Shown in pieces: positions 2,879-64,000 of a DNA stretch of 64,000 nt; the stretch's first letter is position 1; each line of letters opens with the position of its first letter. The DNA is taken from the NCBI GenBank assembly GCA_027468165.1, contig GCA_027468165.1_3951.1; one strand, 5' to 3'. This DNA comes from a phage. The notes beneath the pieces are model-generated. The model made no database searches, was not told where the DNA came from, and saw only the letters and a program-made list of their open reading frames with translations. The translations under genes and the position numbers were made by a program.

Positions 2879-2899
2879 TATTCTTAAGGAGGGTTATGA

Positions 2900-3349
2900 A
2901 TGTGTTATACAGGCGACCCAGCCAATAACCCTCTTGATAGAGTAAGAATCCTCTGCACAGACACCAATAATGATGAAATTCTTATTGAGCAGTCTGTGCT
3001 AGAGTGGTTCTATCTAGAATCTGGAAAGGATGAAAAGAAAGCAGCCATCAAAGCTCTTAAATATTTACTCTTTCAAGTAGCCAAGATGGGAGATGAGAAG
3101 GTTGGTGGTGTTTACTTACGTAACTCTTCCAGATTCAAGTCTCTGAAGGCTGTTTATGACGACCTTGTTAAAAGCTCTGTTTCAGGACTACCCTATGCAG
3201 GTGGTATTAGTCAGTGTGATATTGACATGCGTCGTCATAATCCTTGCTCTGTCAAGAAATACACAGAATATGGTGATGCTGCTAGATACGAAGGCAGAGA
3301 TTACTGCAACCGTGTTAATGGCGTATTTATTATCGAGCGAGATGAATAA
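2900..3349 (+). CDS. Hypothetical head/neck protein
   Basis: ATG preceded by AAGGAGGG; located between capsid and tail genes. Confidence 0.4.
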   Translation: MCYTGDPANNPLDRVRILCTDTNNDEILIEQSVLEWFYLESGKDEKKAAIKALKYLLFQVAKMGDEKVGGVYLRNSSRFKSLKAVYDDLVKSSVSGLPYAGGISQCDIDMRRHNPCSVKKYTEYGDAARYEGRDYCNRVNGVFIIERDE

Positions 3350-7332: not shown

Positions 7333-12734
<5,402 letters not shown>

Positions 12735-19197: not shown

Positions 19198-19395
19198 ATG
19201 CCTACAATCCTAGCAATTCTTCTAAAAAATCTAGGTAGCTTCTTCTGGAAACTTATTTTATCCCTTCTAAGTGAATACATGATTGAGAAAGTGTTCTTTA
19301 GGCTTGCAAGATACCTTGCGAGTAAAACAGACACACCTATTGATGATGAGTTCGTAGATAACTTAGAAAAAGCTTTTAAGGGGGAGAATAAATGA
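19198..19395 (+). CDS. Small membrane protein (hypothetical; holin-like topology)
   Basis: 65 aa with one hydrophobic helix and a charged C-terminus. Confidence 0.25.
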   Translation: MPTILAILLKNLGSFFWKLILSLLSEYMIEKVFFRLARYLASKTDTPIDDEFVDNLEKAFKGENK

Positions 19396-19763
19396 AGTGG
19401 CTAGAGGAAGCTTTTAAAAATAATATTGGTGCAATTGTAGTTGGTATTTTTAGTGTTATCGGAATGTATACCACGATGCAAGTTTCAAGTGGTAAACAAG
19501 AAGTGTCTGTCTCAACAAAGTTACAACAGTTGGATAATTACACAAGTAGTAACTATTCAGCTATTCGTGATTTACAGTCTGACATGAGACTTATTCAGTT
19601 AGGGATGGAGAACCAGAAAGTTCAGTTAGAGAATGTTAAGGGTGAGAACGCAAAACTTACCAAAACTCTTGATAAATTCTCTGACAGTGTGAATAATCTG
19701 GCCCAATCAGTATCAGCCCTCCAAGCTATTACTGAGAAGAACACAAAGAATACTGAAAAGTAA
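19392..19763 (+). CDS. Membrane-anchored coiled-coil protein (hypothetical)
   Basis: N-terminal hydrophobic helix IGAIVVGIFSVIGMY followed by a coiled-coil region. Confidence 0.3.
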   Translation: MKWLEEAFKNNIGAIVVGIFSVIGMYTTMQVSSGKQEVSVSTKLQQLDNYTSSNYSAIRDLQSDMRLIQLGMENQKVQLENVKGENAKLTKTLDKFSDSVNNLAQSVSALQAITEKNTKNTEK

Positions 19764-52416: not shown

Positions 52417-52752
52417 ATGAAAATCAAAGAGATGAATATCAATATTGTCTTAGAAGAACGTTGGGAGAACATCAAGAAGCCTGAAAATGGTCATAAGTTC
52501 CTCAACAAAATCTTAGTAGCAGCTAAAGAAGAACTGACTGGCAAGGTTGCAGCGGCAATCACGATAAAGGTGTGTGTAAAGGGTCTTCCAGACAATCACC
52601 AATTTGCACTTGACGAGTTTAAAGAAAGCTTCTACAATCCAAACAAACAGATGCTTGAAAGTAACTTTGCAGTATCTACAAGTATCGTCCATGACAGAAG
52701 CTTTACCCTTTACAAGAATATGAGAGGTGAGTCATGCAAGCATATTGGATAG
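52417..52752 (+). CDS. Hypothetical protein
   Basis: 111 aa ORF. Confidence 0.35.
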   Translation: MKIKEMNINIVLEERWENIKKPENGHKFLNKILVAAKEELTGKVAAAITIKVCVKGLPDNHQFALDEFKESFYNPNKQMLESNFAVSTSIVHDRSFTLYKNMRGESCKHIG

Positions 52753-52910
52753 AAATTTTACTGTCACTTGGTAGTGTAGCAGTATTTGTTTACCTTCTTT
52801 GCAAGTACTACGCAGAGTACAAAAAATGTGACTTCTGTAACGGAGAGGGTTATACAAGAGCAGGTTGCTGCCCTATGTGTGGTGGTTCTGGTAAAATGTT
52901 TAATAAGTAA
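52734..52910 (+). CDS. Small membrane-anchored zinc-finger protein (58 aa; DnaJ-type CxxCxGxG repeats)
   Basis: ATG after GAGGTGAG RBS; hydrophobic N-terminus then CDFCNGEG and CPMCGGSG; below the ORF-track cutoff. Confidence 0.35.
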   Translation: MQAYWIEILLSLGSVAVFVYLLCKYYAEYKKCDFCNGEGYTRAGCCPMCGGSGKMFNK

Positions 52911-52938: not shown

Positions 52939-55305
52939 ATGCGCATGGTAAATGACCACGCAGAAGTGATTAAGAGTTCAACTTCTTTGGAGACGTCTCA
53001 AGCACAGATTACAATGACACCTGAAATGTTCAGCCTTCTGAGTTCTGGTGTATATACCTTTAAAGAGCGAGCAGTAATTCGTGAACTGTCATGTAACGCA
53101 GTAGATGCTCAGAAAGAAGCTGGAAAAGAGAACATCCCGTTCCATGTGCATTTACCTACTCGTTTTGAGCCTTACTTTGAAGTTCGTGATTTTGGAACTG
53201 GATTGACTCATGATAAAGTTATGAGTTTGTATCTAAATTACGGGGCTTCTACGAAGAATGACTCTAATGACTACATTGGTGCAATGGGTATCGGTTCAAA
53301 ATCTCCATTTGCAATTGCTCAGTCATTCACAGTATCTAGCTATGTTGATGGTATTGTTAATAAGTACTCTGTTTACCTTGAGAATGGTATCCCTCAAGTA
53401 ACTAAGCTGACTACCAACCCAACAAAAGAACCTAACGGTTTAGCTGTACGTGTAGCAGTTGCTGACCATCGTATCTCAAAGTTCTTTGAAGAAGCTGGTC
53501 ACGTATACTCATACTTTACTGTAAAACCAGAAAGTAACATTGAGTATGACGATGTATTAGCAGATATGAATGTCATTGCCCGTGAAGAAGGTGTTTATGA
53601 TGCCATGATTCATAAGCAAAGCTGGCGTTCTAGTGGTAACAAGACAGAGTTTAATGTAGTGATGGGTAACATTGCCTACCCTGTTAACATGGAAGCACTA
53701 CTTGGTGATGATTTCTTTAAAGTCTTGCCAGAGTTTTTCCGTAGGAGCGTAGACCTTGTAAACATCTATATGCCTATTGGTTCAGTTGCTATTGCAGCTT
53801 CTCGTGAAGCATTGCAGATGAATGATACAACAAAAAATGTTATCATTGAGGCTACTAAAAAGATAACTGAAGCAATTACAAAGGATGTTATCAAGAAAGT
53901 TAATAGCCAACCTACACTCATGGATGCTGCACAGGCTTATGCTGAGTTACGTTTAAACTCACGAGAGATGTTTAATGCTGTGTGTCCAAAGCTAGAGTGG
54001 GGAGGCGTTAAGCTTGATTCTTTGGAAGAAGAATTGCTAAACATTCGTCGTGGAATTATCTACGCAGAAGACGGCTCAGTCATTTATGAACGTGACGGTA
54101 AAGGTAATATTAAGGTTGATAGGAACGGAAACAACATCCCTAAAGTAGATTATCTTTATGACCCAGTTGCTTATGTCAAGTTCAACTCTTTAGAGAGTAA
54201 GATTCGTGCAACATCACTTTCCTACACTCAAGAGGCAAGTATGTTCAATATCTTTGGAGCAATGCGTAAAAGTCAAATTGAACAGTTTTTGTTTGTTATA
54301 AATGACCGTCGCAATAAAAACGGTACTGAGAAGACTGTAGGACGCAATCAAATCTTGCGTGGTGCATGTCGAGACTATGCCAGTGAGTCGAGTATGTTTC
54401 ACAGATACAATGGTATTGTCTTTGTATTCTCTACTGAGAAAGATTTAGACGACCTAATCAATCTACACAAACTTGATAAAAGCTTGTTAAAGATTGTGAA
54501 GATGTCTGATAAGGAACATCATTATCAGCGTAAAGAAGCTGTAAGAGGTGTTGTAAAACTCTGGAAAGCTGTTCCAGCAGAAGGTGTAGCTTCATACAAA
54601 GAGGTGTCAGAAGACTTAGATACGATTGAAGAGCCTCAGCTTTATATTAAGGCAGTAGGCGACACAGTTGATGGCGAATGTTTTTGCTCATCTCCAGAAG
54701 ATGTAGCTAAGTCAGTTGCCAATGTCATTGGAAAGACAGTATATGTTTTCCGAAAAGCAAATTGGAAAAAGATACCAGAAGATTGGGTTGAAGTAGATGA
54801 GAAGCTCTTGAACGACAGCTTAACTGATGTTCACTGGATTAATCACAACAGGTATATGACACGTATCTATGTGAATGGTGTCCTTGACCTTACAAGCAGT
54901 TGGATTATTGCCAGAAACTTTACGTTCAATAACAGGAAGATTTCTCGTGGCTATTGCTATTCACGAGATACAAACAAAACTATCTTCTTAGAAGGTAATG
55001 AAGATGCTGTTGAGGCAATGTTTGGCAAAATCCAATACGTTGCTGCACCGTTTGCATACACTTACACTGTTAGCAGGTTGCAAACTTTGAAAGGATGCCT
55101 TGACAACGATACAAAGCTGTACAAGAAAATTAAGAAAGCTGGCGACCGTATGGTCATTAAGGTGACAAACTATCTTTCAAAAAGAAAACAAGAAAACTTC
55201 TTGCTTTCTCATTTAGATTGGAATAAAGTGTCACCCATCGAAGTGAGTAAGTTCTTAGGCTTTGATGTGAAGTGTGTTCCAGAAGGGACTACAATTTACG
55301 ATTAA
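52939..55305 (+). CDS. rIIA: GHKL-family ATPase domain protein, rIIA-like
   Basis: N-terminal Bergerat-fold motifs ELSCNAVDA, VRDFGTGL and GAMGIGSKS; 788 aa; followed by a candidate rIIB. Confidence 0.5.
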   Translation: MRMVNDHAEVIKSSTSLETSQAQITMTPEMFSLLSSGVYTFKERAVIRELSCNAVDAQKEAGKENIPFHVHLPTRFEPYFEVRDFGTGLTHDKVMSLYLNYGASTKNDSNDYIGAMGIGSKSPFAIAQSFTVSSYVDGIVNKYSVYLENGIPQVTKLTTNPTKEPNGLAVRVAVADHRISKFFEEAGHVYSYFTVKPESNIEYDDVLADMNVIAREEGVYDAMIHKQSWRSSGNKTEFNVVMGNIAYPVNMEALLGDDFFKVLPEFFRRSVDLVNIYMPIGSVAIAASREALQMNDTTKNVIIEATKKITEAITKDVIKKVNSQPTLMDAAQAYAELRLNSREMFNAVCPKLEWGGVKLDSLEEELLNIRRGIIYAEDGSVIYERDGKGNIKVDRNGNNIPKVDYLYDPVAYVKFNSLESKIRATSLSYTQEASMFNIFGAMRKSQIEQFLFVINDRRNKNGTEKTVGRNQILRGACRDYASESSMFHRYNGIVFVFSTEKDLDDLINLHKLDKSLLKIVKMSDKEHHYQRKEAVRGVVKLWKAVPAEGVASYKEVSEDLDTIEEPQLYIKAVGDTVDGECFCSSPEDVAKSVANVIGKTVYVFRKANWKKIPEDWVEVDEKLLNDSLTDVHWINHNRYMTRIYVNGVLDLTSSWIIARNFTFNNRKISRGYCYSRDTNKTIFLEGNEDAVEAMFGKIQYVAAPFAYTYTVSRLQTLKGCLDNDTKLYKKIKKAGDRMVIKVTNYLSKRKQENFLLSHLDWNKVSPIEVSKFLGFDVKCVPEGTTIYD

Positions 55306-55310
55306 AGTGT

Positions 55311-55340
55311 TTGACAAGGGGCTTTGAAGCCCCTTAGAAT
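55311..55340 (+). promoter_or_regulatory. Sigma70-like promoter with a GC hairpin in the spacer
   Basis: TTGACA, 17-18 nt spacer containing AGGGGCTTTGAAGCCCC, then TAGAAT. Confidence 0.4.
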
Positions 55341-55384
55341 AGCCTTACAAAATGATTTATTAACTAACAAGAGAGAGTAATAAG

Positions 55385-56494
55385 ATGACTACTAAAACTA
55401 AAGCACAGATTGACGCAGAAATTTACAAACTGGTTAAAGAAGGCAAGCTGACTAAAACAGCTATTGCACAGAAGTTCAATACTTCAACCCGTTCAGTTGG
55501 TCGTGCTGTAGAGCGTCATGAAGCAACCTTAAAAGGTAAGAAAAAGGCAACTTCTAAGCCAGCTAAGAAGACCCTAAAGCAAGTTGCTAAGTCAGTTAAA
55601 AAGAAAGCTGGCAAACCAGTTGAAAAGGTTGTTAAAGAGGCTGTACAAAAGGCTCCGGTAAACAAACTGCACGAAGCTATGCAGAAAGATGACAAGATTG
55701 AGTACATGATTACTGGTGACTCTGTAATTATGACTTACGGTTCAGAATCTGAAATTGTTGAGTCTACTCATCCGAACTATCAAGAGATTGTAGTTCATGT
55801 TGTGAAAGGTGAGTTCAAGAAAGCCTTTGAACTGATGAACATTCGTAAGTCTATCGAAAACTTCACTCAGGGTGCTATCACAATCAAAGGTGATAAGCTA
55901 TTCTACGGGGCTGTTGAGATGCGTTCTACTCTGGTTGACCGTATCCTTCACATGATGAAGACTGGCGATAAAGGTTTTGAACGACTTGTAATGTTCTTCG
56001 AAAAACTGATGGAAAACCCATCTAAAGATTCTGTAGAACAACTTTGGGGATTTGTATCCCACCTTGATGTTGAAATTGATGAAGAAGGTTACATCATTGG
56101 TTGGAAGAGAGTCTCTACTCGTGAAGGCAAGTTGGTTGACTCTCACACACACAAAGTGCCTAATGATTTGGGTAACATTGTAGAGATGCCACGTTGGATG
56201 GTTGATAACAACCGTAACGTAACTTGTTCTCAAGGTCTTCATGTTGGTGCTTGGGATTATGTTCGTTACTTCTCAGGTGATACCATCCTGAAGGTTCGTG
56301 TCCATCCACGAGATGTTGTATCTGTTCCAACTGATTACAACGATATGAAGATGCGTTCATCCCGTTATGAAGTTGCAGCAATCGTTGATAATCAGCGTAA
56401 AGTACTGAAAGCGTGGGATGGTAAGACTGAGGCTTTGCATGTCATCGTTGGCACTGCTGGTGAACTCATCTCCCAACGTAAACGTGAAATCTAA
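55385..56494 (+). CDS. rIIB: rIIB-like protein (putative)
   Basis: 369 aa ORF downstream of the rIIA-like gene; N-terminal HTH-like segment and Lys-rich linker; call from synteny only. Confidence 0.3.
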   Translation: MTTKTKAQIDAEIYKLVKEGKLTKTAIAQKFNTSTRSVGRAVERHEATLKGKKKATSKPAKKTLKQVAKSVKKKAGKPVEKVVKEAVQKAPVNKLHEAMQKDDKIEYMITGDSVIMTYGSESEIVESTHPNYQEIVVHVVKGEFKKAFELMNIRKSIENFTQGAITIKGDKLFYGAVEMRSTLVDRILHMMKTGDKGFERLVMFFEKLMENPSKDSVEQLWGFVSHLDVEIDEEGYIIGWKRVSTREGKLVDSHTHKVPNDLGNIVEMPRWMVDNNRNVTCSQGLHVGAWDYVRYFSGDTILKVRVHPRDVVSVPTDYNDMKMRSSRYEVAAIVDNQRKVLKAWDGKTEALHVIVGTAGELISQRKREI

Positions 56495-56510
56495 TAAGTA
56501 ATTTCTTAAA

Positions 56511-56532
56511 AGGCTGCTTCGGCGGCCTTTTT
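56511..56532 (+). terminator. Rho-independent terminator
   Basis: GGCTGC-TTCG-GCGGCC hairpin followed by TTTTTT. Confidence 0.55.
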
Positions 56533-56534
56533 TA

Positions 56535-56562
56535 TTTGTATTTTGTGCAGAGTGCTGTATAA
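56535..56562 (+). promoter_or_regulatory. Sigma70-like promoter
   Basis: TTGTAT, 16 nt spacer, TATAAT; about 30 nt upstream of the transglycosylase gene. Confidence 0.45.
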
Positions 56563-56594
56563 TTGAGGTCACGATAAACTAAACAGGAGAACCA

Positions 56595-57146
56595 ATGAAG
56601 AAGTTGATTCTAGGTTTGTGCTTAATGTTTACAGCACACTTATCTTATGCAGTTGACTGCCCAGAGCTATCAATTAGTCAAAAAGTAAACATGTTAAAAG
56701 CTTACCAGTATGGTGAGAATAATATGGGTAAAGGATGGGGCATCACTCTAGCTGCTATAGCCTTACAAGAGTCAGAGTTAGGTCTGAATATGGAGAATAA
56801 AAAGACCCATGACTATGGTATCTTCCAGAATCACTTGAAGACTGTTGTAAAGCGTAACAAAATCAGCCCTAATGTGGCTAAAAAGAAACTCTTAAAAGAT
56901 TTTAACTATGCTGCAAAGGAAACACACAAAGAGCTTGAGTTTTGGACGAAGGTACATGGTCAACCAAAATCAAAGAAGACTTTACAAAAAGTTTTAGCGT
57001 CATATAATGCTGGGTATTCGTACAAAATCCCTAAAGCTAAGAAATATTCTCAGGATGTCTATAACAATATGAAAGTCATCGCTCAATGTGAATTTGCAAC
57101 AAACATTTCTAAGGTAAATCATGAAAAAATTAAGAAAGTTGGATGA
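56595..57146 (+). CDS. Secreted lytic transglycosylase-like protein (SLT domain; candidate endolysin)
   Basis: Signal peptide MKKLILGLCLMFTAHLSYA; SLT-like ES...DYGIFQ and SYNAG motifs. Confidence 0.5.
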   Translation: MKKLILGLCLMFTAHLSYAVDCPELSISQKVNMLKAYQYGENNMGKGWGITLAAIALQESELGLNMENKKTHDYGIFQNHLKTVVKRNKISPNVAKKKLLKDFNYAAKETHKELEFWTKVHGQPKSKKTLQKVLASYNAGYSYKIPKAKKYSQDVYNNMKVIAQCEFATNISKVNHEKIKKVG

Positions 57147-57816
57147 AGTACTGTGCCATGCTTACGACTTGCATCCTCATGAGTTAGGTCTTGATTCCTG
57201 TGTATGGACTCCAGAACAGTGCAGAGATTTTGAAGATACTGCAAGAGAAGTTGTATGCTCACTTGAAGAGTTCCACACATCAGAACCAATTGTGAACGTT
57301 GTGGACAAAGAGACTGGACAATCTATAGGTGTAAGACGTGACAGTTTAGTCATAGTCAATAAAGACCTTGTAGAAAAAGGTAACCTCATCTTAGCAGATA
57401 TTGATGGTGTTCTTACAAATTTTAATCACGAAGATTGCTCAACGGAATTGACTGATGGGTCATTCTCACAGTACACTAATCTTCTTGACTCTGTAAGAGC
57501 AAAACCAACGTATGTTTTTAGTATTATTGATGCAATTGCTAATCATGCTGCCATTGGACTCTTGACAGCAAGAGGTGAGTCTCAGAGAATACCTACTGAG
57601 ATGTTTTTAAGGCATAACATAGAGCATGACTACATGCTTCTTATGCGTGGTTTTGGAACTAACTCTATAAGTGCAGAAAGTTTAAAAGTTAGGATGATTC
57701 AGTCTTGCATTCTTCCTTACTTTAATATAGTATGCTTTATAGAAGATACAGAGAAGAATGTTCAGAAGGTAAACAGAATCCTTCCACACATTAAAACCAT
57801 GTTAGTTAAACATTGA
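57121..57816 (+). CDS. HAD-superfamily hydrolase-like protein (putative phosphatase/nucleotidase)
   Basis: HAD motif I-like LADIDGVLTNF. Confidence 0.4.
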   Translation: MKKLRKLDEVLCHAYDLHPHELGLDSCVWTPEQCRDFEDTAREVVCSLEEFHTSEPIVNVVDKETGQSIGVRRDSLVIVNKDLVEKGNLILADIDGVLTNFNHEDCSTELTDGSFSQYTNLLDSVRAKPTYVFSIIDAIANHAAIGLLTARGESQRIPTEMFLRHNIEHDYMLLMRGFGTNSISAESLKVRMIQSCILPYFNIVCFIEDTEKNVQKVNRILPHIKTMLVKH

Positions 57817-57826
57817 GAGAAAACTT

Positions 57827-58291
57827 ATGAACAATATCATTACGGTAGCACTGGACGATACGACAAACAAATCTGTATTAGTTCGTAAATTGATTCAAGG
57901 TAACTTTGAAGGTAAAATTTTTCGTGCTGTTAATGTAAAAGCTGATGGCAGCATTCGTGAATATCGTGCATTGTTGAATGTTAAAAAGCACGTAAAAGGT
58001 GCTGGTTCAACGACTGCACACAAAGAAAACCTGATGACTATCTATGATATGGGTAAGGCTTCAGAGTTAGGTGCTGAAGGTATCGTTAAAGAAGGTGCTC
58101 CGTATCGCTCTTTCAATCTGGAAACTACTCTTATGCTTTCCTTTACAAGTGGTTCTAAAACAATCACTTACCTCTTTACTGATGCTGCAACGGTATCTGC
58201 TATTAAGGATGGCACTGTCAAAGCTGGCGTAGTTGCTGCTGCAAAAGCTTCTTCGATGGCTGCGAATATCCTTGCTAAAGTCCTCAGTTAA
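57827..58291 (+). CDS. Hypothetical protein
   Basis: 154 aa ORF followed by a strong terminator. Confidence 0.4.
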   Translation: MNNIITVALDDTTNKSVLVRKLIQGNFEGKIFRAVNVKADGSIREYRALLNVKKHVKGAGSTTAHKENLMTIYDMGKASELGAEGIVKEGAPYRSFNLETTLMLSFTSGSKTITYLFTDAATVSAIKDGTVKAGVVAAAKASSMAANILAKVLS

Positions 58292-58303
58292 GGTTAAGAT
58301 ACA

Positions 58304-58325
58304 GGCTCCTTCGGGAGCCTTTTTC
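58304..58325 (+). terminator. Rho-independent terminator
   Basis: AGGCTCC-TTCG-GGAGCCT hairpin followed by TTTTT. Confidence 0.6.
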
Positions 58326-58343
58326 ATTTCAGGAGATTGTTAA

Positions 58344-58691
58344 ATGACATTTAAAGAGTTCTGCCAAGCTACTTTCATAATTGTTTTCTTAGTTGGGGCG
58401 GGTGTCTGGGGAGGATACTCTTACCGAGACTATCAAGTTGCTGAAGCTGAGCTAAACAATGAGAAGCTAATAAGTGTTGCTAAAGATGCTTATCAGGAAG
58501 GTTTAGCCACACTCAGCACTAATTACAAAAATGATTTGAAAGACGTGCTTGCTAAGAATAAGCATACAAAAGAGGTACTAACATATGAAAAAACTAAGCC
58601 AGAGTTTTATAATGTTTGTGTTACTGATAATTATGTCAGGGTGTTCAACGAACAAAGTGAACAGTACATTCAAAAACTCCCAAGTAAGTGA
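58344..58691 (+). CDS. i-spanin (Rz-like, putative)
   Basis: N-terminal transmembrane helix FIIVFLVGAGVWGG then a charged periplasmic domain; an o-spanin-like ORF starts inside it in another frame. Confidence 0.45.
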   Translation: MTFKEFCQATFIIVFLVGAGVWGGYSYRDYQVAEAELNNEKLISVAKDAYQEGLATLSTNYKNDLKDVLAKNKHTKEVLTYEKTKPEFYNVCVTDNYVRVFNEQSEQYIQKLPSK

Positions 58692-58854
58692 GAGTGACAA
58701 GTACACCCAAGAAGAATCAAGATTCACTGTCAAAGGCAACACTGGTAGTGATGTGGCAGCAGCCCTTGAGTTTTATCGTGATGGTTTTTACCAGTGCACA
58801 ATCAAAGCTAATAATCTTATTGACATGATTTTATTAGAGAACAAACAGCAATGA
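58585..58854 (+). CDS. o-spanin (Rz1-like lipoprotein, putative)
   Basis: Signal peptide with lipobox-like IMSGC; begins within the i-spanin gene and extends past it. Confidence 0.45.
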   Translation: MKKLSQSFIMFVLLIIMSGCSTNKVNSTFKNSQVSESDKYTQEESRFTVKGNTGSDVAAALEFYRDGFYQCTIKANNLIDMILLENKQQ

Positions 58855-59120
58855 CAGAGAACGAAGACACTTTCTATGTAGAAGGGTACTTACTGCTACC
58901 ACGACCAAAAGAAACTTATATGCGGGTTGATTTTTCACCAACCATTATGGATAACGTGATGTGTCATATCTTTATGCAAGGTGTCACAGCACAACTTAAG
59001 CATGTTGGTAAAGAGTGCAAAATAAAGGTTGACACTCATCCAGAAATCAAAGAGAATCACTACACATGGTTCTTACCAGACTCTAAAGAAATCTTAGCAG
59101 TTCTTAAAACGAGGAAATGA
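58851..59120 (+). CDS. Hypothetical protein
   Basis: 89 aa coupled ORF. Confidence 0.3.
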   Translation: MTENEDTFYVEGYLLLPRPKETYMRVDFSPTIMDNVMCHIFMQGVTAQLKHVGKECKIKVDTHPEIKENHYTWFLPDSKEILAVLKTRK

Positions 59121-59431
59121 TTATGCAATTCCAGCCAACAAATCGTGGATTTTCTTATGCAGAATTTAAAGATGCTAAAGGAGAGATTTGTACTTTACAA
59201 GAAAGTTCATCATATGAACCATGTATCTGGTTAGGTGCTAAAGAGGTCTCTGTTCAGTACCTAGATGGTGGCTGGAAAACACTTGATATCCCAGCATTAG
59301 TAGGCAAAGATTTTGTAGGTAACCAAAGAATGAAACTCAACCAAGAACAGGTGAAAGAGTTGTTACCGTACCTTCAGTACTTTGCTGAAAATGGTGAATT
59401 ACCAACAGAGGAACTTACAAATGCAGATTAA
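59117..59431 (+). CDS. Hypothetical protein
   Basis: 104 aa coupled ORF. Confidence 0.3.
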   Translation: MIMQFQPTNRGFSYAEFKDAKGEICTLQESSSYEPCIWLGAKEVSVQYLDGGWKTLDIPALVGKDFVGNQRMKLNQEQVKELLPYLQYFAENGELPTEELTNAD

Positions 59432-59744
59432 TGGAAGAGACTTTGTAGCTGTTTACTACGAGAAAGATAAAGAAGTTGGCGTAGCACAAGTATCTTATGG
59501 TAATGGTAAGTGGTTGTATGGAACAATCGCAGTAGTCGGAACAAGGAGTGATACAAAAACTTTTAAAGATTGTGTTGACCTTCTTGAAGAATCCATCCAC
59601 AATCATTGGTGTCTGATATGGATGACTGACAACGAAGTGATAGCACGCTTCAAAAAGATTGGTATCAACATTGATAGCATTGAGCATGTTGATTTGTATG
59701 AGCTAACTGAGAAGGTAAACTATGAAAGCTCTAGAGGTAGTTGA
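59421..59744 (+). CDS. Hypothetical protein
   Basis: ATG after GAGGA RBS. Confidence 0.3.
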   Translation: MQINGRDFVAVYYEKDKEVGVAQVSYGNGKWLYGTIAVVGTRSDTKTFKDCVDLLEESIHNHWCLIWMTDNEVIARFKKIGINIDSIEHVDLYELTEKVNYESSRGS

Positions 59745-59949
59745 CAAAGACACTGGAGAAGTCATATCTGCATGTGTTTTCATAAGCGATGACACAGTGA
59801 TACCATTTTACAACCTTGATGGTTTTAGTTTTACAGGGATAACTCCAGAAGAATACTTTGAAGACCTTACCTTTGCCAGAATCTCTATAGATACATTCTA
59901 TAAATGTTTCTATGATGAAGGTAAAGAGTTACGAGAAACTGAACTATAA
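59722..59949 (+). CDS. Hypothetical protein
   Basis: 75 aa ORF. Confidence 0.3.
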   Translation: MKALEVVDKDTGEVISACVFISDDTVIPFYNLDGFSFTGITPEEYFEDLTFARISIDTFYKCFYDEGKELRETEL

Positions 59950-59960
59950 GGCTTATATTT

Positions 59961-60161
59961 ATGGCTGACTTCTGCAAAGATTGTGCTATCGAAATGTTCG
60001 GACGTGATACAGGAGACTTAAAAGGTCTTATCACTGAAGATGACTTTAAAGCTGGCTATGCAATGCCAGTAATCTGTGAAGGTTGTGGGTGTATCTGGGT
60101 AGACCACGAAGGACAACGTGTAAAACCTTCAGAAGATAAAGAATCTTGGGAGAGATGTTAA
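59961..60161 (+). CDS. Small zinc-ribbon protein (hypothetical)
   Basis: CKDC ... CEGCGC cysteine pairs. Confidence 0.3.
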   Translation: MADFCKDCAIEMFGRDTGDLKGLITEDDFKAGYAMPVICEGCGCIWVDHEGQRVKPSEDKESWERC

Positions 60162-60947
60162 ATGGGTATTGTAAAAATAATCAATGGGGATATCTTCTCT
60201 GCATTTGATAAAGGTAAGTTTGATATCATTGGTCACGGTTGCAACTGTATGAACTTAATGGGTGCAGGTATCGCTGACAAGATTTCTAAACTTTACCCAA
60301 AAGCATATGAGACTGATACAGAAGTTTATCTGTATGCAGGTGGTATAGGCCACAAACCCTGTGAAAATTTACTAGGTAATTTCTCTGTAGCACGTTTAGA
60401 ACAAGGCCGTATAGCTAACCTTTACACTCAGCTTAAGACTGGTAAAGATGCCCGATACAGTGCTTTAGAGTCATCTTTGAAACAGCTTAACAGATACTGT
60501 GAAGTCAATCAGTTGAAGAAAGTTGGTTTACCTATGGTTGGTGCAGGTATCGGTGGACTAGACCCTCAAGCCGTCACAGTTATCATTAATCAGGTGATGA
60601 AGAGCGTAGATGTTTACCTGTATGTCTACGAGGCAGAGATGTACCACGAGTTACACTCAGGTTGGAATAACTACTGTGAACCAGAATACTTTGCAGGTGT
60701 AGTAGTGTTCACTGATGATGCAGTTACCCTCTTCAGACGAAGAAAAGGTAAGATACATCAAAGTAACCCTCCGGTTGAGAAGATGTCTCTAAGTAACGCT
60801 CTAGTTACCCACCTGTCGAAGAGCAATCACAGAATTGCAGTAACATTTGGCAGTGATGCAGATACATATATCTATGCAAGAACTGATGAGGATGTTAAGG
60901 AAATTTTCTCTTCACAGGAAGTTACCTTCTTAGACGCAAAGAACTAA
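60162..60947 (+). CDS. Macro-domain-like protein (possible ADP-ribose binding/processing)
   Basis: DIIGHGCNCMNLMGAGIADKI resembles the macro-domain glycine-rich motif (cf. VNAAN..L.GGGGV); weak, from memory. Confidence 0.3.
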   Translation: MGIVKIINGDIFSAFDKGKFDIIGHGCNCMNLMGAGIADKISKLYPKAYETDTEVYLYAGGIGHKPCENLLGNFSVARLEQGRIANLYTQLKTGKDARYSALESSLKQLNRYCEVNQLKKVGLPMVGAGIGGLDPQAVTVIINQVMKSVDVYLYVYEAEMYHELHSGWNNYCEPEYFAGVVVFTDDAVTLFRRRKGKIHQSNPPVEKMSLSNALVTHLSKSNHRIAVTFGSDADTYIYARTDEDVKEIFSSQEVTFLDAKN

Positions 60948-61017
60948 GAAACTCTGTAGAATATTCACAATAGACTAAGCCTTTCTTATCTGGTAAATTT
61001 TTCAGGTAAGGAGGGCT

Positions 61018-61200
61018 TTTTCATTTCAGGATTGTGCAGGTAGATTTCTGGACAGAAATCTGTAGAGAGAATTTTGAACTCCAAAGAGAAAATTCATTTT
61101 CAAACTGTGCAGGTAATCTCCAAAGAGCTTTTTCATTTTCAAAACGTGCAGATAAAAATCAGGTCGGGCAAGAAAAATCATTTTAGAATTGTGCAGGTAG
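61018..61200 (+). repeat. Four imperfect direct repeats, core TTCATTTTCAAA-N-TGTGCAGGTA, in a noncoding region
   Basis: Copies near 61018, 61092, 61130 and 61177; also CTCCAAAGAG twice; the 70 aa track ORF here translates the repeats. Confidence 0.6.
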
Positions 61201-61375
61201 GTGAGTGTAGGTGGGAATGTCGCCATTTCTCACAAGGCTACCACATCCGAAAAGAAAAGTCAACAGAAAAATTTGTAGCGGATTGAAAAATAATTCTTGA
61301 TTTGTGTTCTGTTTTGTGGTAGTCGCGTGCGCCCGTTTCATTACATTTTTGCCAAAAATATTTTTAAAATTTTTA

Positions 61376-61404
61376 TTGACTCCTCGAACTGGTTTTTATA
61401 GTAT
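61376..61404 (+). promoter_or_regulatory. Sigma70-like promoter with an AT-rich UP-like element
   Basis: TTGACT, 17 nt spacer, TAGTAT (or TATAGT at 15); preceded by AAAAATATTTTTAAAATTTTTA. Confidence 0.4.
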
Positions 61405-61410
61405 TTGCAT

Positions 61411-61469
61411 CAACGGGGAGGTAATGAACTTCCCCACTAAGTAAAACCCTTAAACTAGGAGATTCAAAA
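61411..61469 (+). repeat. Cassette element X1: hairpin GGGGAGG..CTTCCCC plus conserved leader AAACCCTTAAACTAGGAGATTCAAAAATG
   Basis: Near-identical copy at 63179-63237. Confidence 0.6.
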
Positions 61470-61850: not shown

Positions 61851-61853
61851 TAA

Positions 61854-61938
61854 AGTACTTTACAAGGGGTTTATAGTTCGATAAAGTAAGCCCCAGATAA
61901 AGAGCTTTACCACTCAATCCTAAATTGGAGATTCTAAA
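61854..61938 (+). repeat. Cassette element Y1: GTACTTTACA + hairpin GGGGTTTA..TAAGCCCC + AGATAAAGAGCTTTACC + leader
   Basis: Related copies at 62200-62286 and 63511-63597; leader variant CTAAATTGGAGATTCTAAAATG. Confidence 0.6.
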
Positions 61939-62196
61939 ATGGCTATTATCAAAAACGTTGTAATTACTGCAAAAACTCGCGATGACGCTCGCATCATGGC
62001 GAAAAAGTTAGGCGGGAAAGTTGTTGACAACGGAAAACAATCTGCTGTAAGGTGGGGCGTGAAGGCTGATAAACAACTAACCTTAAAACGCAGTTCAAAC
62101 AATCTTTTTAAAGGTGTAAAATCACTCGGTAAAGTGAACGTGTTTACCAAAAAAGGCTATAAAATGCGCTTGTCATTAACTGGCAATTTAATCTGA
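61939..62196 (+). CDS. Cassette small protein B (hypothetical, Lys-rich)
   Basis: 85 aa ORF after element Y1. Confidence 0.4.
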   Translation: MAIIKNVVITAKTRDDARIMAKKLGGKVVDNGKQSAVRWGVKADKQLTLKRSSNNLFKGVKSLGKVNVFTKKGYKMRLSLTGNLI

Positions 62197-62199
62197 TAA

Positions 62200-62286
62200 A
62201 GTACTTTACAGGGGGCTTAAAAGCTGATATCTTAAGCCCCAGATAAAGAGCTTTACTATATTAACCTTAAACTAGGAGATTCAAAA
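62200..62286 (+). repeat. Cassette element Y2 (stem variant GGGGCTTAA..TTAAGCCCC)
   Basis: Same flanks as Y1/Y3 with paired changes in the stem that keep base pairing. Confidence 0.6.
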
Positions 62287-62799
62287 ATGAAAACTGTAGA
62301 CGCTACCTTTGAAGTTGTAAAAGAAAAATTTTCCATCATTTACGAAGCTGTTAACTGCTACGAAGCAAGCCATAGCCTTGATAATTGGGAATTTACAGAT
62401 AATCACCAAGGTGGTGTGACTATTAAAAACCCCAACTATCGTTATAATGCTTTTAAATATGCAATCCCTTTACATTACAGCCTTAAACAGCTTTCAAGCG
62501 ACTATGCAAAACAAGGCCGGGAAAATCCATCAAAAGCGGCCTATATCAGCTTGCAGAGAGAACTAGAAAGGGATTTAGAAGCTTCAGCATATAATATTGC
62601 CGCAAAAGTTGTCGATGCAAACGGGAAAACGGTTTTAGATAGTTTTTCTATTGGTTACGCTTTCGATTGGTGCTATAGCGACGGCGTCGATTTAGCGGAT
62701 AGACTAAAAGAGGAGGTGAGCAGTTCAGGCGCAGAATCTGAAGTTATGGAACAATTAGAAGCCTTAAAAGATTCAGTGATGAATATCTTTAAAAATTAA
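62287..62799 (+). CDS. Cassette protein C (hypothetical)
   Basis: 170 aa ORF after element Y2. Confidence 0.45.
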   Translation: MKTVDATFEVVKEKFSIIYEAVNCYEASHSLDNWEFTDNHQGGVTIKNPNYRYNAFKYAIPLHYSLKQLSSDYAKQGRENPSKAAYISLQRELERDLEASAYNIAAKVVDANGKTVLDSFSIGYAFDWCYSDGVDLADRLKEEVSSSGAESEVMEQLEALKDSVMNIFKN

Positions 62800-63148: not shown

Positions 63149-63178
63149 ATTTGGTTTTAAAAGCAAGTAAATTACTAA

Positions 63179-63237
63179 TCAACGGTGAGGGAATGAACTT
63201 CCCCACTAAATAAAACCCTTAAACTAGGAGATTCAAA
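63179..63237 (+). repeat. Cassette element X2
   Basis: CAACGGTGAGGGAATGAACTTCCCCACTAAATAAAACCCTTAAACTAGGAGATTCAAAATG, near-identical to X1. Confidence 0.6.
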
Positions 63238-63510
63238 ATGTATACTACTAACAACGGTCGCACCTTAAACGTAACCCTGCGCCACTATGTAAACGGCGTG
63301 ATGAACTTTGAAGATTTACAAGCGGAGCAACACATTCTGGATTGGCAACTTGCAGGATTCCAAAAAACTGCTACCGGATACGGGAAAAAGATTCCAACTA
63401 GTTGGAAAGTATACTACGAAGGGCGTTTGCGCAGAATTTATCAGGATGTATACAGCAATAGCGCATCAACTTACATCATGGTAAAAGGTAAAAAATTGCA
63501 TTTAGTGTAA
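63238..63510 (+). CDS. Cassette small protein E (hypothetical)
   Basis: 90 aa ORF after element X2. Confidence 0.4.
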   Translation: MYTTNNGRTLNVTLRHYVNGVMNFEDLQAEQHILDWQLAGFQKTATGYGKKIPTSWKVYYEGRLRRIYQDVYSNSASTYIMVKGKKLHLV

Positions 63511-63597
63511 AGTACTTTACAAGGGGCTTATAGTTCGATAAAGTAAGCCCCAGATAAAGAGCTTTACCGCATTAACCTTAAACTAGGAGATTCAAAA
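63511..63597 (+). repeat. Cassette element Y3
   Basis: AGTACTTTACAAGGGGCTTATAGTTCGATAAAGTAAGCCCCAGATAAAGAGCTTTACC...AACCTTAAACTAGGAGATTCAAAAATG. Confidence 0.6.
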
Positions 63598-64000
63598 ATG
63601 GCTATCAATAAACGCGAATTATCAATTTTAAAAGCACGTTTGACCGTTAACCGGATTAATGTTATTACGTCATCAGCACCAGACGAGACACTGCAAAACA
63701 TTATTGGGAAGATTCAAAGTGTTATCTTAGACGTTGAAAGCGTAAAAAACTCACTGACTGACGTTGCAGCAGGTATCACCTTAAACGGTGCACAATATGA
63801 AATGGCTGACATGTTAGGCAAATCTAAGGTAATGAATAAAGAGCTTGATTTGAAAATGTTCAGATTCGCCGTAAAAGTATGGTTATCCGTCGATTATGAC
63901 GCAAATTTTGCAATCGCTGACTTTTTTGCAACATGGTTACAACGTAATTTGACAAATCACGATTTTCGTGATATCTGCGATGCAATTTATGCAGAACTTT
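63598..64000 (+). CDS. Cassette protein F (hypothetical; 3' end beyond the window)
   Basis: ATG at the conserved leader; frame open to the window end (MAINKRELSILKARL...). Confidence 0.4.
   Translation, partial: MAINKRELSILKARLTVNRINVITSSAPDETLQNIIGKIQSVILDVESVKNSLTDVAAGITLNGAQYEMADMLGKSKVMNKELDLKMFRFAVKVWLSVDYDANFAIADFFATWLQRNLTNHDFRDICDAIYAEL

What the first reader, a model, noticed from the sequence alone, without database searches (positions are those of the whole stretch)
56595..58854. Candidate lysis cluster: secreted transglycosylase and an overlapping i-spanin/o-spanin pair
The gene at 58344-58691 encodes an N-terminal transmembrane helix followed by a charged domain. Inside it, in another frame, a second gene (58585-58854) starts with a lipoprotein-type signal ending in IMSGC and runs past the first gene's stop, which is the classic overlapped Rz/Rz1 architecture. 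About 1.7 kb upstream lies a signal-peptide-bearing SLT-domain protein (ES...GIFQ, SYNAG) behind its own promoter, a candidate secreted endolysin. No convincing holin was identified.
Basis: partly seen in the sequence, partly recalled or inferred. Interest (0 to 1): 0.45.

Follow-up and report, generated by a model that had tools for sequence, protein, structure and literature searches.

The report
Known spanin pair plus Vs.1-like transglycosylase
This stretch of a Felix O1-like phage genome holds a real but already catalogued pair of overlapping outer-membrane-disrupting lysis genes, and a separate exported cell-wall-cutting enzyme that is a relative of the uncharacterised T4 protein Vs.1 rather than the phage's main lysis enzyme.

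Summary
The window is a Felixounavirus (about 97% nucleotide identity to Salmonella phage OPT-SAL01 and E. coli phage EC6).

**Sequence observations: all hold.**
- 58344-58691 encodes a 115-aa protein with an N-terminal transmembrane helix.
- 58585-58854 encodes, in the +1 frame, an 89-aa lipoprotein precursor (lipobox MSGC, Cys20, Ser at +2) that overlaps it by 107 nt.
- 56595-57146 encodes a signal-peptide protein with SLT motifs.

**Spanin reading: correct but not new.** Kongari et al. 2018 already list Felix O1, EC6 and JH2 as the 'JH2' family of overlapped two-component spanins. Several GenBank records annotate the pair.

**'Lysis cluster' and 'secreted endolysin' readings: not supported.**
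- The genus endolysin is a GH24 lysozyme about 9 kb beyond the window's end.
- The holin candidate lies at 19392-19763.
- A phosphatase gene, an unknown gene and two terminators separate the SLT gene from the spanins.

**The SLT protein is a homolog of T4 Vs.1.**
- Vs.1 belongs to a large family of exported, disulfide-bearing, EtgA-like peptidoglycan glycosidases found in large virulent phages.
- In T4 it is transcribed early. Its function is untested.

Interest is low. The open point is what Vs.1-family enzymes do.

The parts
56508..56531 (+). Rho-independent terminator after rIIB (AAAAGGCTGCTTCGGCGGCCTTTT plus a T-run)
   Evidence: Found by the terminator scan and visible in the sequence. 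Conserved in EC6, SME50, JN01 and Mooglevirus Sf14; one stem pair is G-U here and A-U in Sf14.
56558..56563 (+). Perfect -10 hexamer TATAAT upstream of the Vs.1-like gene; the -35 is weak (TTTGTA, 17-nt spacer)
   Evidence: Invariant in five phages including Mooglevirus, while flanking bases vary. Promoter activity is inferred, not shown.
56595..57146 (+). Vs.1-family exported SLT-like peptidoglycan glycosidase (183 aa). Signal peptide aa 1-19, catalytic E59-S60, D73, Q78, S136-YNAG, Y151, and a probable C22-C165 disulfide
57121..57816 (+). PseT-like HAD-type phosphatase (231 aa; DIDGVL motif, no kinase P-loop). Not a lysis gene
   Evidence: phrog_3970 'polynucleotide kinase' 1.6e-133; sequence. 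BLASTP to T4 PseT is not significant (E = 0.29).
57827..58291 (+). 154-aa protein of unknown function, with no TMD and no signal peptide. Not a recognisable lysis gene
   Evidence: phrog_2267, unknown function, 1.4e-48. Only a sub-threshold Pfam WYL_2 hit. Hydropathy.
58303..58320 (+). Terminator-like hairpin (AGGCTCCTTCGGGAGCCT plus T5), 23 nt before the i-spanin start codon
   Evidence: Only partly conserved in Sf14, where the upstream ORF runs up to the spanin start.
58344..58691 (+). i-spanin (115 aa): N-terminal TMD around residues 6-24, a periplasmic domain predicted helical, and conserved C-terminal motif P-x-F-Y-N-x-C92-x-x-D-x-Y-x-x-x-F-N-E
   Evidence: phrog_1152 'Rz-like spanin' 8.9e-42. 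100% identical to the phage JH2 protein. JH2/Felix01/EC6 are listed as an overlapped i-spanin family in PMC6139136. Alignment of seven diverse homologs. The AF2 model is low confidence (pLDDT 56) and all-helical.
58585..58854 (+). o-spanin (89-aa precursor): lipoprotein signal with lipobox MSGC (58633-58644), lipidated Cys20, Ser at +2 (outer-membrane sorting). The mature protein is 70 aa with no Pro, a conserved LEFYRDGFYQC71 motif and NNLID
   Evidence: phrog_4180 2.8e-50 and phrog_456 'Rz-like spanin' 6.3e-5. Annotated o-spanin in SME50 and JN01. JH2 o-spanin family in PMC6139136. Conserved lipobox and +1 frame in seven phages. Dual-coding substitution pattern.
19392..19763 (+). Holin candidate of the genus (123 aa, one N-terminal TMD), 37 kb upstream of the finding. 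Listed to show that the lysis genes are dispersed
   Evidence: 95% identical to SME50_003, which is annotated 'holin'. PHROGs gives phrog_4038, unknown function. The holin function is untested.

Best explanation
The region is not a lysis cassette. It is part of the rIIA-rIIB-downstream region of a Felix O1-like myovirus, a region that also carries homologs of T4 early genes (vs.1, tk.4) and a PseT-annotated phosphatase (phrog_3970). It carries two unrelated envelope-directed functions.

(1) Genes 58344-58691 and 58585-58854 are an overlapped two-component spanin of the catalogued 'JH2' family.
- The i-spanin is anchored in the inner membrane by its N-terminal helix.
- The o-spanin is Sec-exported, lipidated at Cys20 and sorted to the outer membrane, because residue +2 is Ser.
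- The conserved C-terminal parts of the two proteins are inferred to bind across the periplasm. Each carries one conserved Cys, inferred to form homotypic disulfides.
- Once the endolysin has removed the peptidoglycan, the complexes are inferred to fuse the inner and outer membranes, completing lysis.
- The anatomy, conservation and dual coding are shown here. The mechanism is inferred from lambda Rz/Rz1 and T4 PseT.3/PseT.2.

(2) Gene 56595-57146 is a member of the T4 Vs.1 family.
- It is a small Sec-exported, disulfide-stabilised enzyme with the SLT / goose-lysozyme fold and a complete EtgA-like active site (E59, N68, D73, Q78, Y137, N138, G140, Y151).
- It most likely cleaves peptidoglycan glycan strands in the periplasm, independently of the holin. 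By analogy with T4 this would begin before the lysis period.
- It would then be an accessory wall-remodelling enzyme, not the endolysin.
- Export, fold and active-site conservation are supported here. Timing in this phage, enzymatic activity and biological role are inferred.

The true endolysin (a GH24 lysozyme) and the holin candidate are encoded elsewhere in the genome.
For: Identity of the phage and existing annotations.

Spanins:
- Features.
- PHROG hits.
- 100% identity to the JH2 i-spanin.
- Published family listing (PMC6139136).
- Co-occurrence with a +1 overlap, lipobox and conserved Cys in Felixounavirus, Mooglevirus, Kolesnikvirus, Kuravirus, Yersinia P778 and Proteus Isfahan.
- In P778 and Isfahan the pair directly follows a Phage_lysozyme or CHAP endolysin. 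In Isfahan a Phage_holin_8 holin lies upstream.
- Dual-coding substitution signature.

Dispersed lysis genes:
- PMC4319497.
- The GH24 lysin lies outside the window.

Vs.1 membership:
- tblastn against 2137 phage records.
- RB14 vs.1 passes the Pfam SLT cut-off, 25.1 against 21.3 bits.
- 'Vs.1 conserved transglycosylase SLT domain protein' of Aeromonas phage 65 is among the profile hits.
- 331 clusters at E <= 1e-30.

Export:
- 55 of 57 members have a signal peptide.
- The Cys pair covaries: 28 with both, 25 with neither, 4 with one.

Fold and active site:
- AF2 pLDDT 86.4.
- EtgA sequence hit, E = 3e-6, with alignment.
- EtgA active-site list (PMC10880428).

Timing in T4: Vs.1 has early RNA and middle protein (PMC9697503 supplement).

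Context in other phages is always early or DNA-metabolism genes.

Independent inheritance of the two elements.
Against: - No experiment on any Felix O1-like spanin or on any Vs.1-family protein was found in the searchable literature.
- Expression timing in this phage is unknown.
- The i-spanin is preceded by a terminator-like hairpin, and no promoter was identified for the pair.
- An auxiliary contribution of the Vs.1-like enzyme to lysis cannot be excluded. Some annotators call it 'putative lysin' (Sf14 record; UniRef name 'Lysin').
- The i-spanin structure model is low confidence.
Confidence: 0.8

Rival explanations
1. The SLT protein is the phage's endolysin, exported by the Sec system, and forms a functional lysis unit with the downstream spanins.
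For: - Signal peptide plus a lysozyme-like fold with intact catalytic residues.
- Located downstream of rIIA/rIIB, which are labelled 'lysis inhibitor'.
- 'Putative lysin' and 'Lysin' labels in one GenBank record and in UniRef.
- The Vibrio phage phi-ST2 record notes 'endolysin'.
Against: - A canonical GH24 endolysin exists in the genus.
- The homolog in T4 coexists with endolysin E and is transcribed early. T4 e mutants do not lyse (established knowledge).
- Two unrelated genes and a terminator separate it from the spanins.
- The two elements are distributed independently among phages.
- In other phage groups the gene sits among DNA-metabolism genes.
Confidence: 0.07
2. The Vs.1-like enzyme is an auxiliary lysis factor. 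This holin-independent periplasmic glycosidase would weaken or pre-nick the sacculus, so that lysis is faster or works on hosts with heavily cross-linked (stationary-phase) walls.
For: - Exported and probably active.
- Conserved in hundreds of large virulent phages.
- Nolan et al. 2006 suggested 'some role in cell lysis' (PMC1524935).
Against: - There are no data for this.
- Early expression in T4, and compatibility with hours-long lysis inhibition in T4 (established knowledge), argue that it does not destabilise the wall much by itself.
Confidence: 0.2
3. The SLT-like protein is a virion-associated wall-piercing enzyme used during DNA injection, like T7 gp16, PRD1 P7 or phiKZ gp144.
Against: - A cleavable Sec signal peptide and a covarying disulfide pair are conserved throughout the family. 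Both are incompatible with assembly into virions in the cytoplasm.
- The gene lies outside the structural module at 1-19 kb.
- It is a single-domain protein of about 170 aa.
Confidence: 0.02
4. The 89-aa overlapping ORF is not expressed from the ATG at 58585. Either only the shorter GTG-initiated product annotated in EC6 and Sf14 is made, or the ORF is a chance ORF, and the 115-aa protein acts alone.
For: RefSeq EC6 and Sf14 annotate a truncated 64-65-aa product that starts after the lipobox.
Against: - The signal peptide, lipobox and 'CST' are conserved down to 27-35% identity in six phage groups.
- An RBS precedes the ATG.
- The overlap shows dual-frame constraint.
- Kongari et al. report that wrong or missing o-spanin starts are a common annotation error: 196 o-spanins not identified and 64 with wrong starts.
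Confidence: 0.03

Closest known systems
'JH2' family of overlapped two-component spanins (Kongari et al. 2018, BMC Bioinformatics 19:326). Members include JH2, Felix01, EC6, WV8, Moogle and Mushroom; the i-spanin family also includes phiEco32 and ECBP2.
   Same: - The i-spanin is 100% identical to that of JH2.
- Same overlapped +1 architecture, lipobox, single periplasmic Cys in each protein, and genomic position.
   Different: Nothing of substance. This is a further isolate of the same family. The family itself has only been defined bioinformatically, and no functional test was found.
Lambda Rz/Rz1 (embedded two-component spanin)
   Same: - Type II inner-membrane protein paired with an outer-membrane lipoprotein encoded in the +1 frame of the same DNA.
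- Periplasmic Cys residues.
- Presumed membrane-fusion role.
   Different: - No sequence homology beyond the membrane anchor (HMM 10.5 bits).
- Overlapped, not embedded.
- The mature o-spanin is 70 aa with no proline and a conserved, probably helical C-terminus, against 40 aa with 10 Pro in Rz1.
- Not next to the holin and endolysin.
T4 PseT.3/PseT.2 (separated two-component spanin)
   Same: - The spanin genes lie far from the holin and endolysin, in an early-type region near a gene annotated pseT-like.
- The o-spanin is structured rather than proline-rich.
- T4 spanin mRNAs are early.
   Different: - No detectable homology.
- Genes are separated in T4 and overlapped here.
- The T4 i-spanin has no Cys and the o-spanin has two; here each has one.
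- Gene order relative to pseT differs.
T4 Vs.1 (conserved ORF next to regB; 'marginal SLT similarity', Nolan et al. 2006)
   Same: - About 180 aa.
- Signal peptide, E-S catalytic motif, SYN(A/S)G and a conserved Tyr.
- 32% identity over 85% of the length.
- Encoded among early genes; function unknown.
   Different: - Different neighbours: rIIB and a PseT-like gene here, regB and vs in T4.
- The Felix-type protein has Asp73 at the position of EtgA D60, where T4-type Vs.1 has Ala.
- The Felix-type protein has the Cys22-Cys165 pair, which the RB14 (T4-type) Vs.1 sequence lacks.
EtgA / IagB / IpgF 'specialised' peptidoglycan glycosidases of type III secretion systems
   Same: - EtgA is the only solved structure found by sequence (E = 3e-6).
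- Small size (about 150-180 aa), Sec signal peptide and a disulfide.
- Same active-site set, including the lysozyme-like Asp.
   Different: - No secretion-system partner such as EscI is known or evident.
- Encoded by a virulent phage.

Membership tests
Two-component spanin, overlapped architecture | i-spanin: small protein with a single N-terminal transmembrane domain and a periplasmic, largely helical C-terminal domain | tested here: met
   Kyte-Doolittle 19-residue window of 1.75 at residues 6-24, the only hydrophobic segment. TMD conserved in seven homologs. The helical prediction comes from a low-confidence model only. Topology itself was not tested.
Two-component spanin, overlapped architecture | o-spanin: lipoprotein signal with a lipobox Cys, and no Asp at +2 (outer-membrane sorting) | tested here: met
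   MSGC with Cys20 and Ser at +2. [MTLI][SA][GSA]C followed by 'ST' in all seven diverse homologs.
Two-component spanin, overlapped architecture | The o-spanin gene starts inside the i-spanin gene in another frame and ends beyond its stop | tested here: met
   +1 frame, 107-nt overlap, ends 163 nt downstream. +1 overlap of 107-155 nt in all homologs. Dual-coding substitution pattern.
Two-component spanin, overlapped architecture | At least one periplasmic Cys, for intermolecular disulfides (Kongari et al. 2018) | tested here: met
   i-spanin C92 and o-spanin C71, both conserved in 7 of 7 aligned homologs. Disulfide formation was not tested.
Two-component spanin, overlapped architecture | Association with a holin or endolysin in at least some genomes | tested here: met
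   Homologous pairs directly follow a Phage_lysozyme endolysin in Yersinia P778, and a holin-orf-CHAP endolysin series in Proteus Isfahan. This is not the case in this genome.
Two-component spanin, overlapped architecture | Required for outer-membrane disruption; complements lambda Rz-am/Rz1-am | not testable with these tools
   No experimental report was found for this family.
Lambda Rz / Rz1 sequence families | Detectable sequence homology to Rz and Rz1 | tested here: not met
   Family HMMs score 10.5 bits (Rz) and 6.3 bits (Rz1), attributed to the shared N-terminal hydrophobic segments rather than homology. BLASTP E = 0.005 at 20% identity.
T4 PseT.3 / PseT.2 sequence families | Detectable sequence homology to PseT.3 and PseT.2 | tested here: not met
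   HMM scores of 1.5 and 9.1 bits. No T4-like phage appears among 406 and 340 tblastn records.
SLT domain (Pfam PF01464; family 1 lytic transglycosylase / goose-lysozyme fold) | Score above Pfam's gathering cut-off | tested here: inconclusive
   The window protein scores 16.9 bits against a 21.3-bit cut-off. Homolog RB14 Vs.1 scores 25.1 bits. Many family members carry a precomputed PF01464 hit.
SLT domain (Pfam PF01464; family 1 lytic transglycosylase / goose-lysozyme fold) | Catalytic Glu-Ser plus the G-x-x-Q and (A/S)-Y-N-A-G motifs and the downstream Tyr | tested here: met
   E59 is invariant (57/57) and S60 is present in 56/57. G75 51/57, Q78 40/57. Y137, G140 and Y151 are invariant; N138 56/57.
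SLT domain (Pfam PF01464; family 1 lytic transglycosylase / goose-lysozyme fold) | Lysozyme-like alpha-helical fold | tested here: met
SLT domain (Pfam PF01464; family 1 lytic transglycosylase / goose-lysozyme fold) | Non-hydrolytic cleavage that yields 1,6-anhydroMurNAc | not testable with these tools
   The presence of Asp73, equivalent to EtgA D60 and HEWL D52, leaves muramidase versus transglycosylase chemistry open.
T4 Vs.1 family | Full-length homology to T4-type Vs.1, with similar size and an N-terminal signal peptide | tested here: met
   32% identity over 85% of the query to RB14 vs.1, E = 7e-10. The profile search recovers 'Vs.1 ... SLT domain protein' of Aeromonas phage 65. RB14 Vs.1 starts MRKALLAGLLAISMMAHS.
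Phage endolysin (functional class), including SAR endolysins | The muralytic enzyme required for lysis; holin-released, or tethered by an uncleaved weakly hydrophobic SAR domain; usually in a lysis cassette | tested here: not met
   A separate GH24 endolysin exists. The N-terminus has a (-3,-1) S-x-A cleavage site conserved in relatives, not a Gly/Ala-rich SAR helix. There is no cassette context in any phage group examined. The requirement for lysis itself was not testable.

The most novel reading that the evidence does not exclude
The Vs.1 family would be a phage counterpart of the 'specialised' secretion-system glycosidases such as EtgA. The family includes this Felix O1-type protein and comprises at least 331 sequence clusters, found mostly in large virulent phages. 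On this reading it is a holin-independent, Sec-exported enzyme made before the lysis period. It would locally remodel the host sacculus for a purpose other than lysis: for example, making room for envelope-spanning phage assemblies such as spanin complexes, altering the wall against superinfecting phages' tail lysozymes, or releasing muropeptides. No experiment on the family was found, so any such role would be a new step in the infection cycle of T4-like, Felix O1-like, Vi1-like and jumbo phages.
Probability: 0.3. Interest if true: 0.55.

Novelty: already known. Interest (0 to 1): 0.2.

Why it matters
For the finding as stated, little follows. The spanin pair is a textbook overlapped architecture already listed for Felix O1, EC6 and JH2, and the phage's endolysin is a known GH24 lysozyme elsewhere in the genome.

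Two practical points do follow.
1. **Annotation errors.** Many GenBank and RefSeq records in this group mis-annotate these genes. The o-spanin is given a truncated start that removes the lipobox (EC6, Sf14). The Vs.1-like gene is labelled 'RegB endoribonuclease' (Erwinia and Kuttervirus phages), or 'lysin'/'endolysin'. These errors propagate.
2. **An untested enzyme family.** The Vs.1 family is a large, conserved group of exported peptidoglycan glycosidases in therapeutically used phage groups (Felixounavirus, Tequatrovirus, Kuttervirus). It has intact active sites, is transcribed early in T4, and has no known function. A simple deletion and biochemistry study would close a gap that has stood since the T4 genome annotation.

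Tried and rejected
1. **Shared origin with T4's pseT-spanin arrangement.** Here the order is PseT-like gene, unknown ORF, i-spanin, o-spanin. In T4 it is pseT.3, pseT.2, pseT.1, pseT. The spanins show no homology (HMM at most 10 bits), BLASTP of the PseT-like protein to T4 PseT gives E = 0.29, and the gene order differs. I kept it only as a loose parallel: in both phages the spanins sit in an early-type region away from the holin and endolysin.
2. **TGTGCAG-N7-TATAAT upstream of the SLT gene as a recurrent promoter class.** The pattern has 2 matches in the window against 1.16 expected by chance, and the four TGTGCAG motifs at 61.0-61.2 kb lack a -10 element at that spacing. Rejected.
3. **Bacterial homologs as a clue to function.** The 'Campylobacter coli' homolog lies on a 214-kb contig with a chimallin gene, so it is a jumbo phage and not a cellular context.
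4. **A conserved neighbour gene (activator or immunity protein) for Vs.1.** Neighbours differ among T4-like, Felix-like, Kuttervirus and Schizotequatrovirus phages.
5. **Literature on Vs.1 function or Felixounavirus transglycosylases.** Nothing was found beyond the 2006 domain note.
6. **Lipoprotein reading of the SLT protein (LGLC at residues 6-9).** Leu at -1, a Cys too close to the N-terminus, and a non-conserved column. Rejected.
8. **AF2 model of the i-spanin from a shallow alignment.** Low confidence (pLDDT 56). I used it only as a hint of helicity.


Full report
**What the window is.** A megablast of 55300-60200 finds 271 phage records. The best matches are at 96.5-96.7% identity over the full length: Salmonella phage OPT-SAL01, Escherichia phage EC6 and S19cd, all Felixounavirus (Ounavirinae). 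The gene order around the finding is:
- rIIA (52939-55305) and rIIB (55385-56494);
- the SLT-like gene (56595-57146);
- a PseT-like phosphatase (57121-57816);
- an unknown 154-aa ORF (57827-58291);
- the two overlapping genes (58344-58691 and 58585-58854);
- several small ORFs, then a macro-domain phosphatase (60162-60947).

*The 115-aa product.* It has a single hydrophobic segment at residues 6-24 and a charged remainder.

*The 89-aa product.*
- It is in the +1 frame and starts at 69% of the first gene.
- It shares 107 nt with the first gene and ends 163 nt after its stop.
- It begins MKKLSQSFIMFVLLIIMSG-C with Ser at +2.
- Both genes have Shine-Dalgarno sequences.

*The 183-aa product.* It begins MKKLILGLCLMFTAHLSYA-VD and contains E59-S60, G-I-F-Q78 and S136-Y-N-A-G.

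*Transcription signals.*
- A strong terminator hairpin follows rIIB (56508-56531).
- A perfect TATAAT lies at 56558-56563. Both are conserved in Mooglevirus Sf14, while the surrounding bases vary.
- The -35 element is poor, so the promoter is plausible but not demonstrated.

**The overlapping pair is real and is a spanin.**
- *PHROG matches.* The 115-aa protein matches phrog_1152 'Rz-like spanin' at 8.9e-42. The 89-aa protein matches phrog_4180 (unknown) at 2.8e-50 and phrog_456 'Rz-like spanin' at 6.3e-5.
- *Co-occurrence.* tblastn finds homologs of both proteins together in 340-406 phage records.
- *Seven phages examined in detail.* These were the window, EC6, Mooglevirus Sf14, Kolesnikvirus Tian, the podovirus Kuravirus ES17, Yersinia phage P778 and the siphovirus Proteus phage Isfahan. 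In all seven the two hits overlap with the o-spanin in the +1 frame (107-155 nt). All o-spanins have a lipobox followed by 'CST'. Each protein keeps one conserved periplasmic Cys, inside the motifs PxFYNxCxxDxYxxxFNE and LE(F/Y/W)Y(R/Q)DxYxxC.
- *Cassette context elsewhere.* In P778 the pair follows a Phage_lysozyme endolysin. In Isfahan it follows a Phage_holin_8 holin, a small ORF and a CHAP endolysin. So in those phages the same family sits in a canonical lysis cassette.
- *Dual-coding signature.* Comparing the window with Sf14, the single-coding parts are 75.9% and 72.6% identical, with a third-codon-position excess of substitutions (15/11/32 and 8/8/27). The shared 107 nt are 87.9% identical with a flat profile in both frames (4/5/4 and 5/4/4). 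That is the signature expected when both frames are under selection.

**The spanin is already known.**
- Kongari et al. [quoted passage not shown] The i-spanin family also includes phiEco32 and ECBP2 (PMC6139136).
- The JH2 i-spanin is 100% identical to the one in this window.
- SME50, JN01 and others annotate i-spanin and o-spanin at exactly these positions.
- There is no sequence homology to lambda Rz/Rz1 or T4 PseT.3/PseT.2. The only weak signal is attributed to shared N-terminal hydrophobic segments.
- The mechanism is therefore inferred by analogy: the two proteins form a complex across the periplasm, and once the wall is removed the complex fuses the inner and outer membranes. No functional test of this family was found.

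**There is no lysis cluster here.**
- In the related, fully annotated phage SME50, the 'holin' is the 123-aa gene after the tail fibre. It corresponds to window 19392-19763 at 95% identity.
- The SME50 'lysin' is a 154-aa protein on the other strand, whose gene starts about 9.4 kb past the point where the window ends. It matches Pfam Phage_lysozyme at 2.2e-40 and has no homolog in the window.
- Between the SLT-like gene and the spanins lie a HAD-type PseT-like phosphatase, an unknown cytoplasmic protein and a terminator-like hairpin (58303-58320).
- The two elements are inherited independently. Kuravirus ES17 has the spanin family but no Vs.1 homolog in its whole genome, by tblastn and by family HMM. 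T4-like phages have Vs.1 but unrelated spanins.

**What the SLT-like protein is.**

*Homology to T4 Vs.1.*
- tblastn finds it in 2137 phage records. Beyond the Ounavirinae, the hits are at 30-37% identity over about 80-90% of the protein. They are the vs.1 gene of T4-like phages (RB14 'vs.1', vB_EcoM_RZ 'Vs.1'), plus genes of Kuttervirus, Schizotequatrovirus and others.
- A profile search recovers 'Vs.1 conserved transglycosylase SLT domain protein' of Aeromonas phage 65.
- An exhaustive HMMER search gives 331 clusters (at 50% identity) at E <= 1e-30 and 782 at E <= 1e-10. Among the 150 listed, most are 160-200 aa.
- Nolan et al. 2006 already noted a marginal SLT match for vs.1 in six T4-like phages and suggested 'some role in cell lysis' (PMC1524935). 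I found nothing later.

*Domain and fold.*
- On its own the window protein is below Pfam's SLT cut-off (16.9 against 21.3 bits). RB14 Vs.1 passes at 25.1 bits.
- In a 57-member alignment, E59, G63, Y137, G140 and Y151 are invariant. S60 and N138 are each present in 56 of 57.
- The AlphaFold model is confident (pLDDT 86.4, core above 95).

*Closest solved relative.*
- The only solved structure found by sequence is EtgA, the type III secretion glycosidase (E = 3.2e-6).
- In that alignment the EtgA active-site residues are E42, N54, D60, Q65, Y116, N117, G119 and Y133 (PMC10880428). They correspond to E59, N68, D73, Q78, Y137, N138, G140 and Y151.
- The protein therefore probably is an active peptidoglycan glycosidase. 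As for EtgA, whether it is a transglycosylase or a muramidase cannot be decided from sequence.

**Export and timing.**
- 55 of 57 family members have an N-terminal signal peptide with small residues at -3 and -1.
- Cysteines near positions 22 and 165 co-occur: 28 members have both, 25 have neither and 4 have one. This is the pattern expected of a structural disulfide in a periplasmic protein.
- In T4, Vs.1 was classified as early RNA and middle protein. The T4 spanins are also early RNAs (PMC9697503 supplement).
- In every phage group examined, the gene lies among early or nucleotide-metabolism genes:
  - regB-vs.1-vs-tk.4 in RB14;
  - rIIB-...-vs.1-like-pseT-like in Erwinia phage Tian;
  - after gp46 in Kuttervirus;
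  - between nrdB/thioredoxin and topoisomerase genes in phi-ST2.
- One fact comes from established knowledge rather than a test here: T4 needs endolysin E to lyse. Taken with the points above, it makes an endolysin role unlikely.
- The most likely role is an accessory, holin-independent wall-remodelling enzyme. An auxiliary contribution to lysis remains possible at roughly 0.2.

**Verdict.**
- The spanin interpretation is supported, but the pair is already catalogued.
- The 'secreted endolysin' and 'cluster' interpretations are not supported.
- The only open biology is the role of the Vs.1 family, which remains untested.

Noticed in passing
window 61012-61208 (intergenic region 60948-61469): There are four copies of a roughly 25-nt motif, TTTTCATTT-N7-(T/C)GTGCAG(G/A)TA, in a 520-nt non-coding stretch. 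They lie upstream of a sigma70-like promoter, TTGACT-17-TAGTAT, at 61376-61404. A weaker copy lies upstream of the Vs.1-like gene (56523-56562). These may be regulator-binding sites. The motif is not a TGTGCAG-N7-TATAAT promoter class (2 matches against 1.2 expected).
   Followed up: partly
window 61851-61943, 62197-62289, 63508-63600; also 61409-61469 and 63178-63238: A 93-nt repeat occurs in three copies (68-87% identical to the reference copy) and a 61-nt repeat in two copies (95% identical). Each contains a GC-rich hairpin and ends in AGGAGATTCAAAAATG. They look like repeated terminator/RBS cassettes in front of successive small ORFs. The same elements recur in phage SME50.
   Followed up: no
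L001 (EC6, NC_027369) 4859-5056; L010 (Sf14, NC_042075) 2814-3008: RefSeq records annotate the o-spanin from an internal GTG (about 65 aa). This removes the signal peptide and the lipobox. The conserved ATG start lies 72 nt upstream.
   Followed up: yes
L007 (Erwinia phage Tian) 3998-4510; L018 (Salmonella phage GEC_vB_GOT) 2402-3019: The Vs.1-like SLT gene is annotated 'putative RegB endoribonuclease'. The error apparently propagated from the T4 neighbour gene regB. Other records call it 'lysin' or 'endolysin'.
   Followed up: partly
L012 (GCA_053226485.1 contig, labelled Campylobacter coli) 8001-8582 and 10019-11953: A Vs.1-family homolog deposited as a Campylobacter coli protein lies on a 214-kb contig that also carries a chimallin (PF25677) gene. 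The contig is therefore a nucleus-forming jumbo phage genome, not a bacterial chromosome.
   Followed up: partly
window 57121-57816: The gene widely annotated 'polynucleotide kinase' has a HAD phosphatase motif (DIDGVL) but no P-loop kinase domain. It has no significant BLASTP match to T4 PseT. It is probably a phosphatase-only protein with a novel 85-aa N-terminal region.
   Followed up: partly
window 19392-19763: The genus 'holin' candidate is a 123-aa protein with one N-terminal TMD and a long C-terminal domain that gives a weak, sub-threshold Pfam DivIC match. PHROGs classes it as unknown (phrog_4038). The holin assignment in GenBank seems to rest on topology alone.
   Followed up: partly
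window 52734-52910: A small ORF (58 aa) just upstream of rIIA has one TMD followed by a CxxC...CxxC zinc-ribbon-like tail. It is annotated 'putative membrane protein' in SME50.
   Followed up: no
L016 (Kuravirus ES17) 13617-14108 versus 32844-33339: In the podovirus ES17, the lysin and the JH2-type spanins are also about 19 kb apart and on opposite strands. Dispersal of the lysis genes is therefore not peculiar to Felix O1-like phages among carriers of this spanin family.
   Followed up: no
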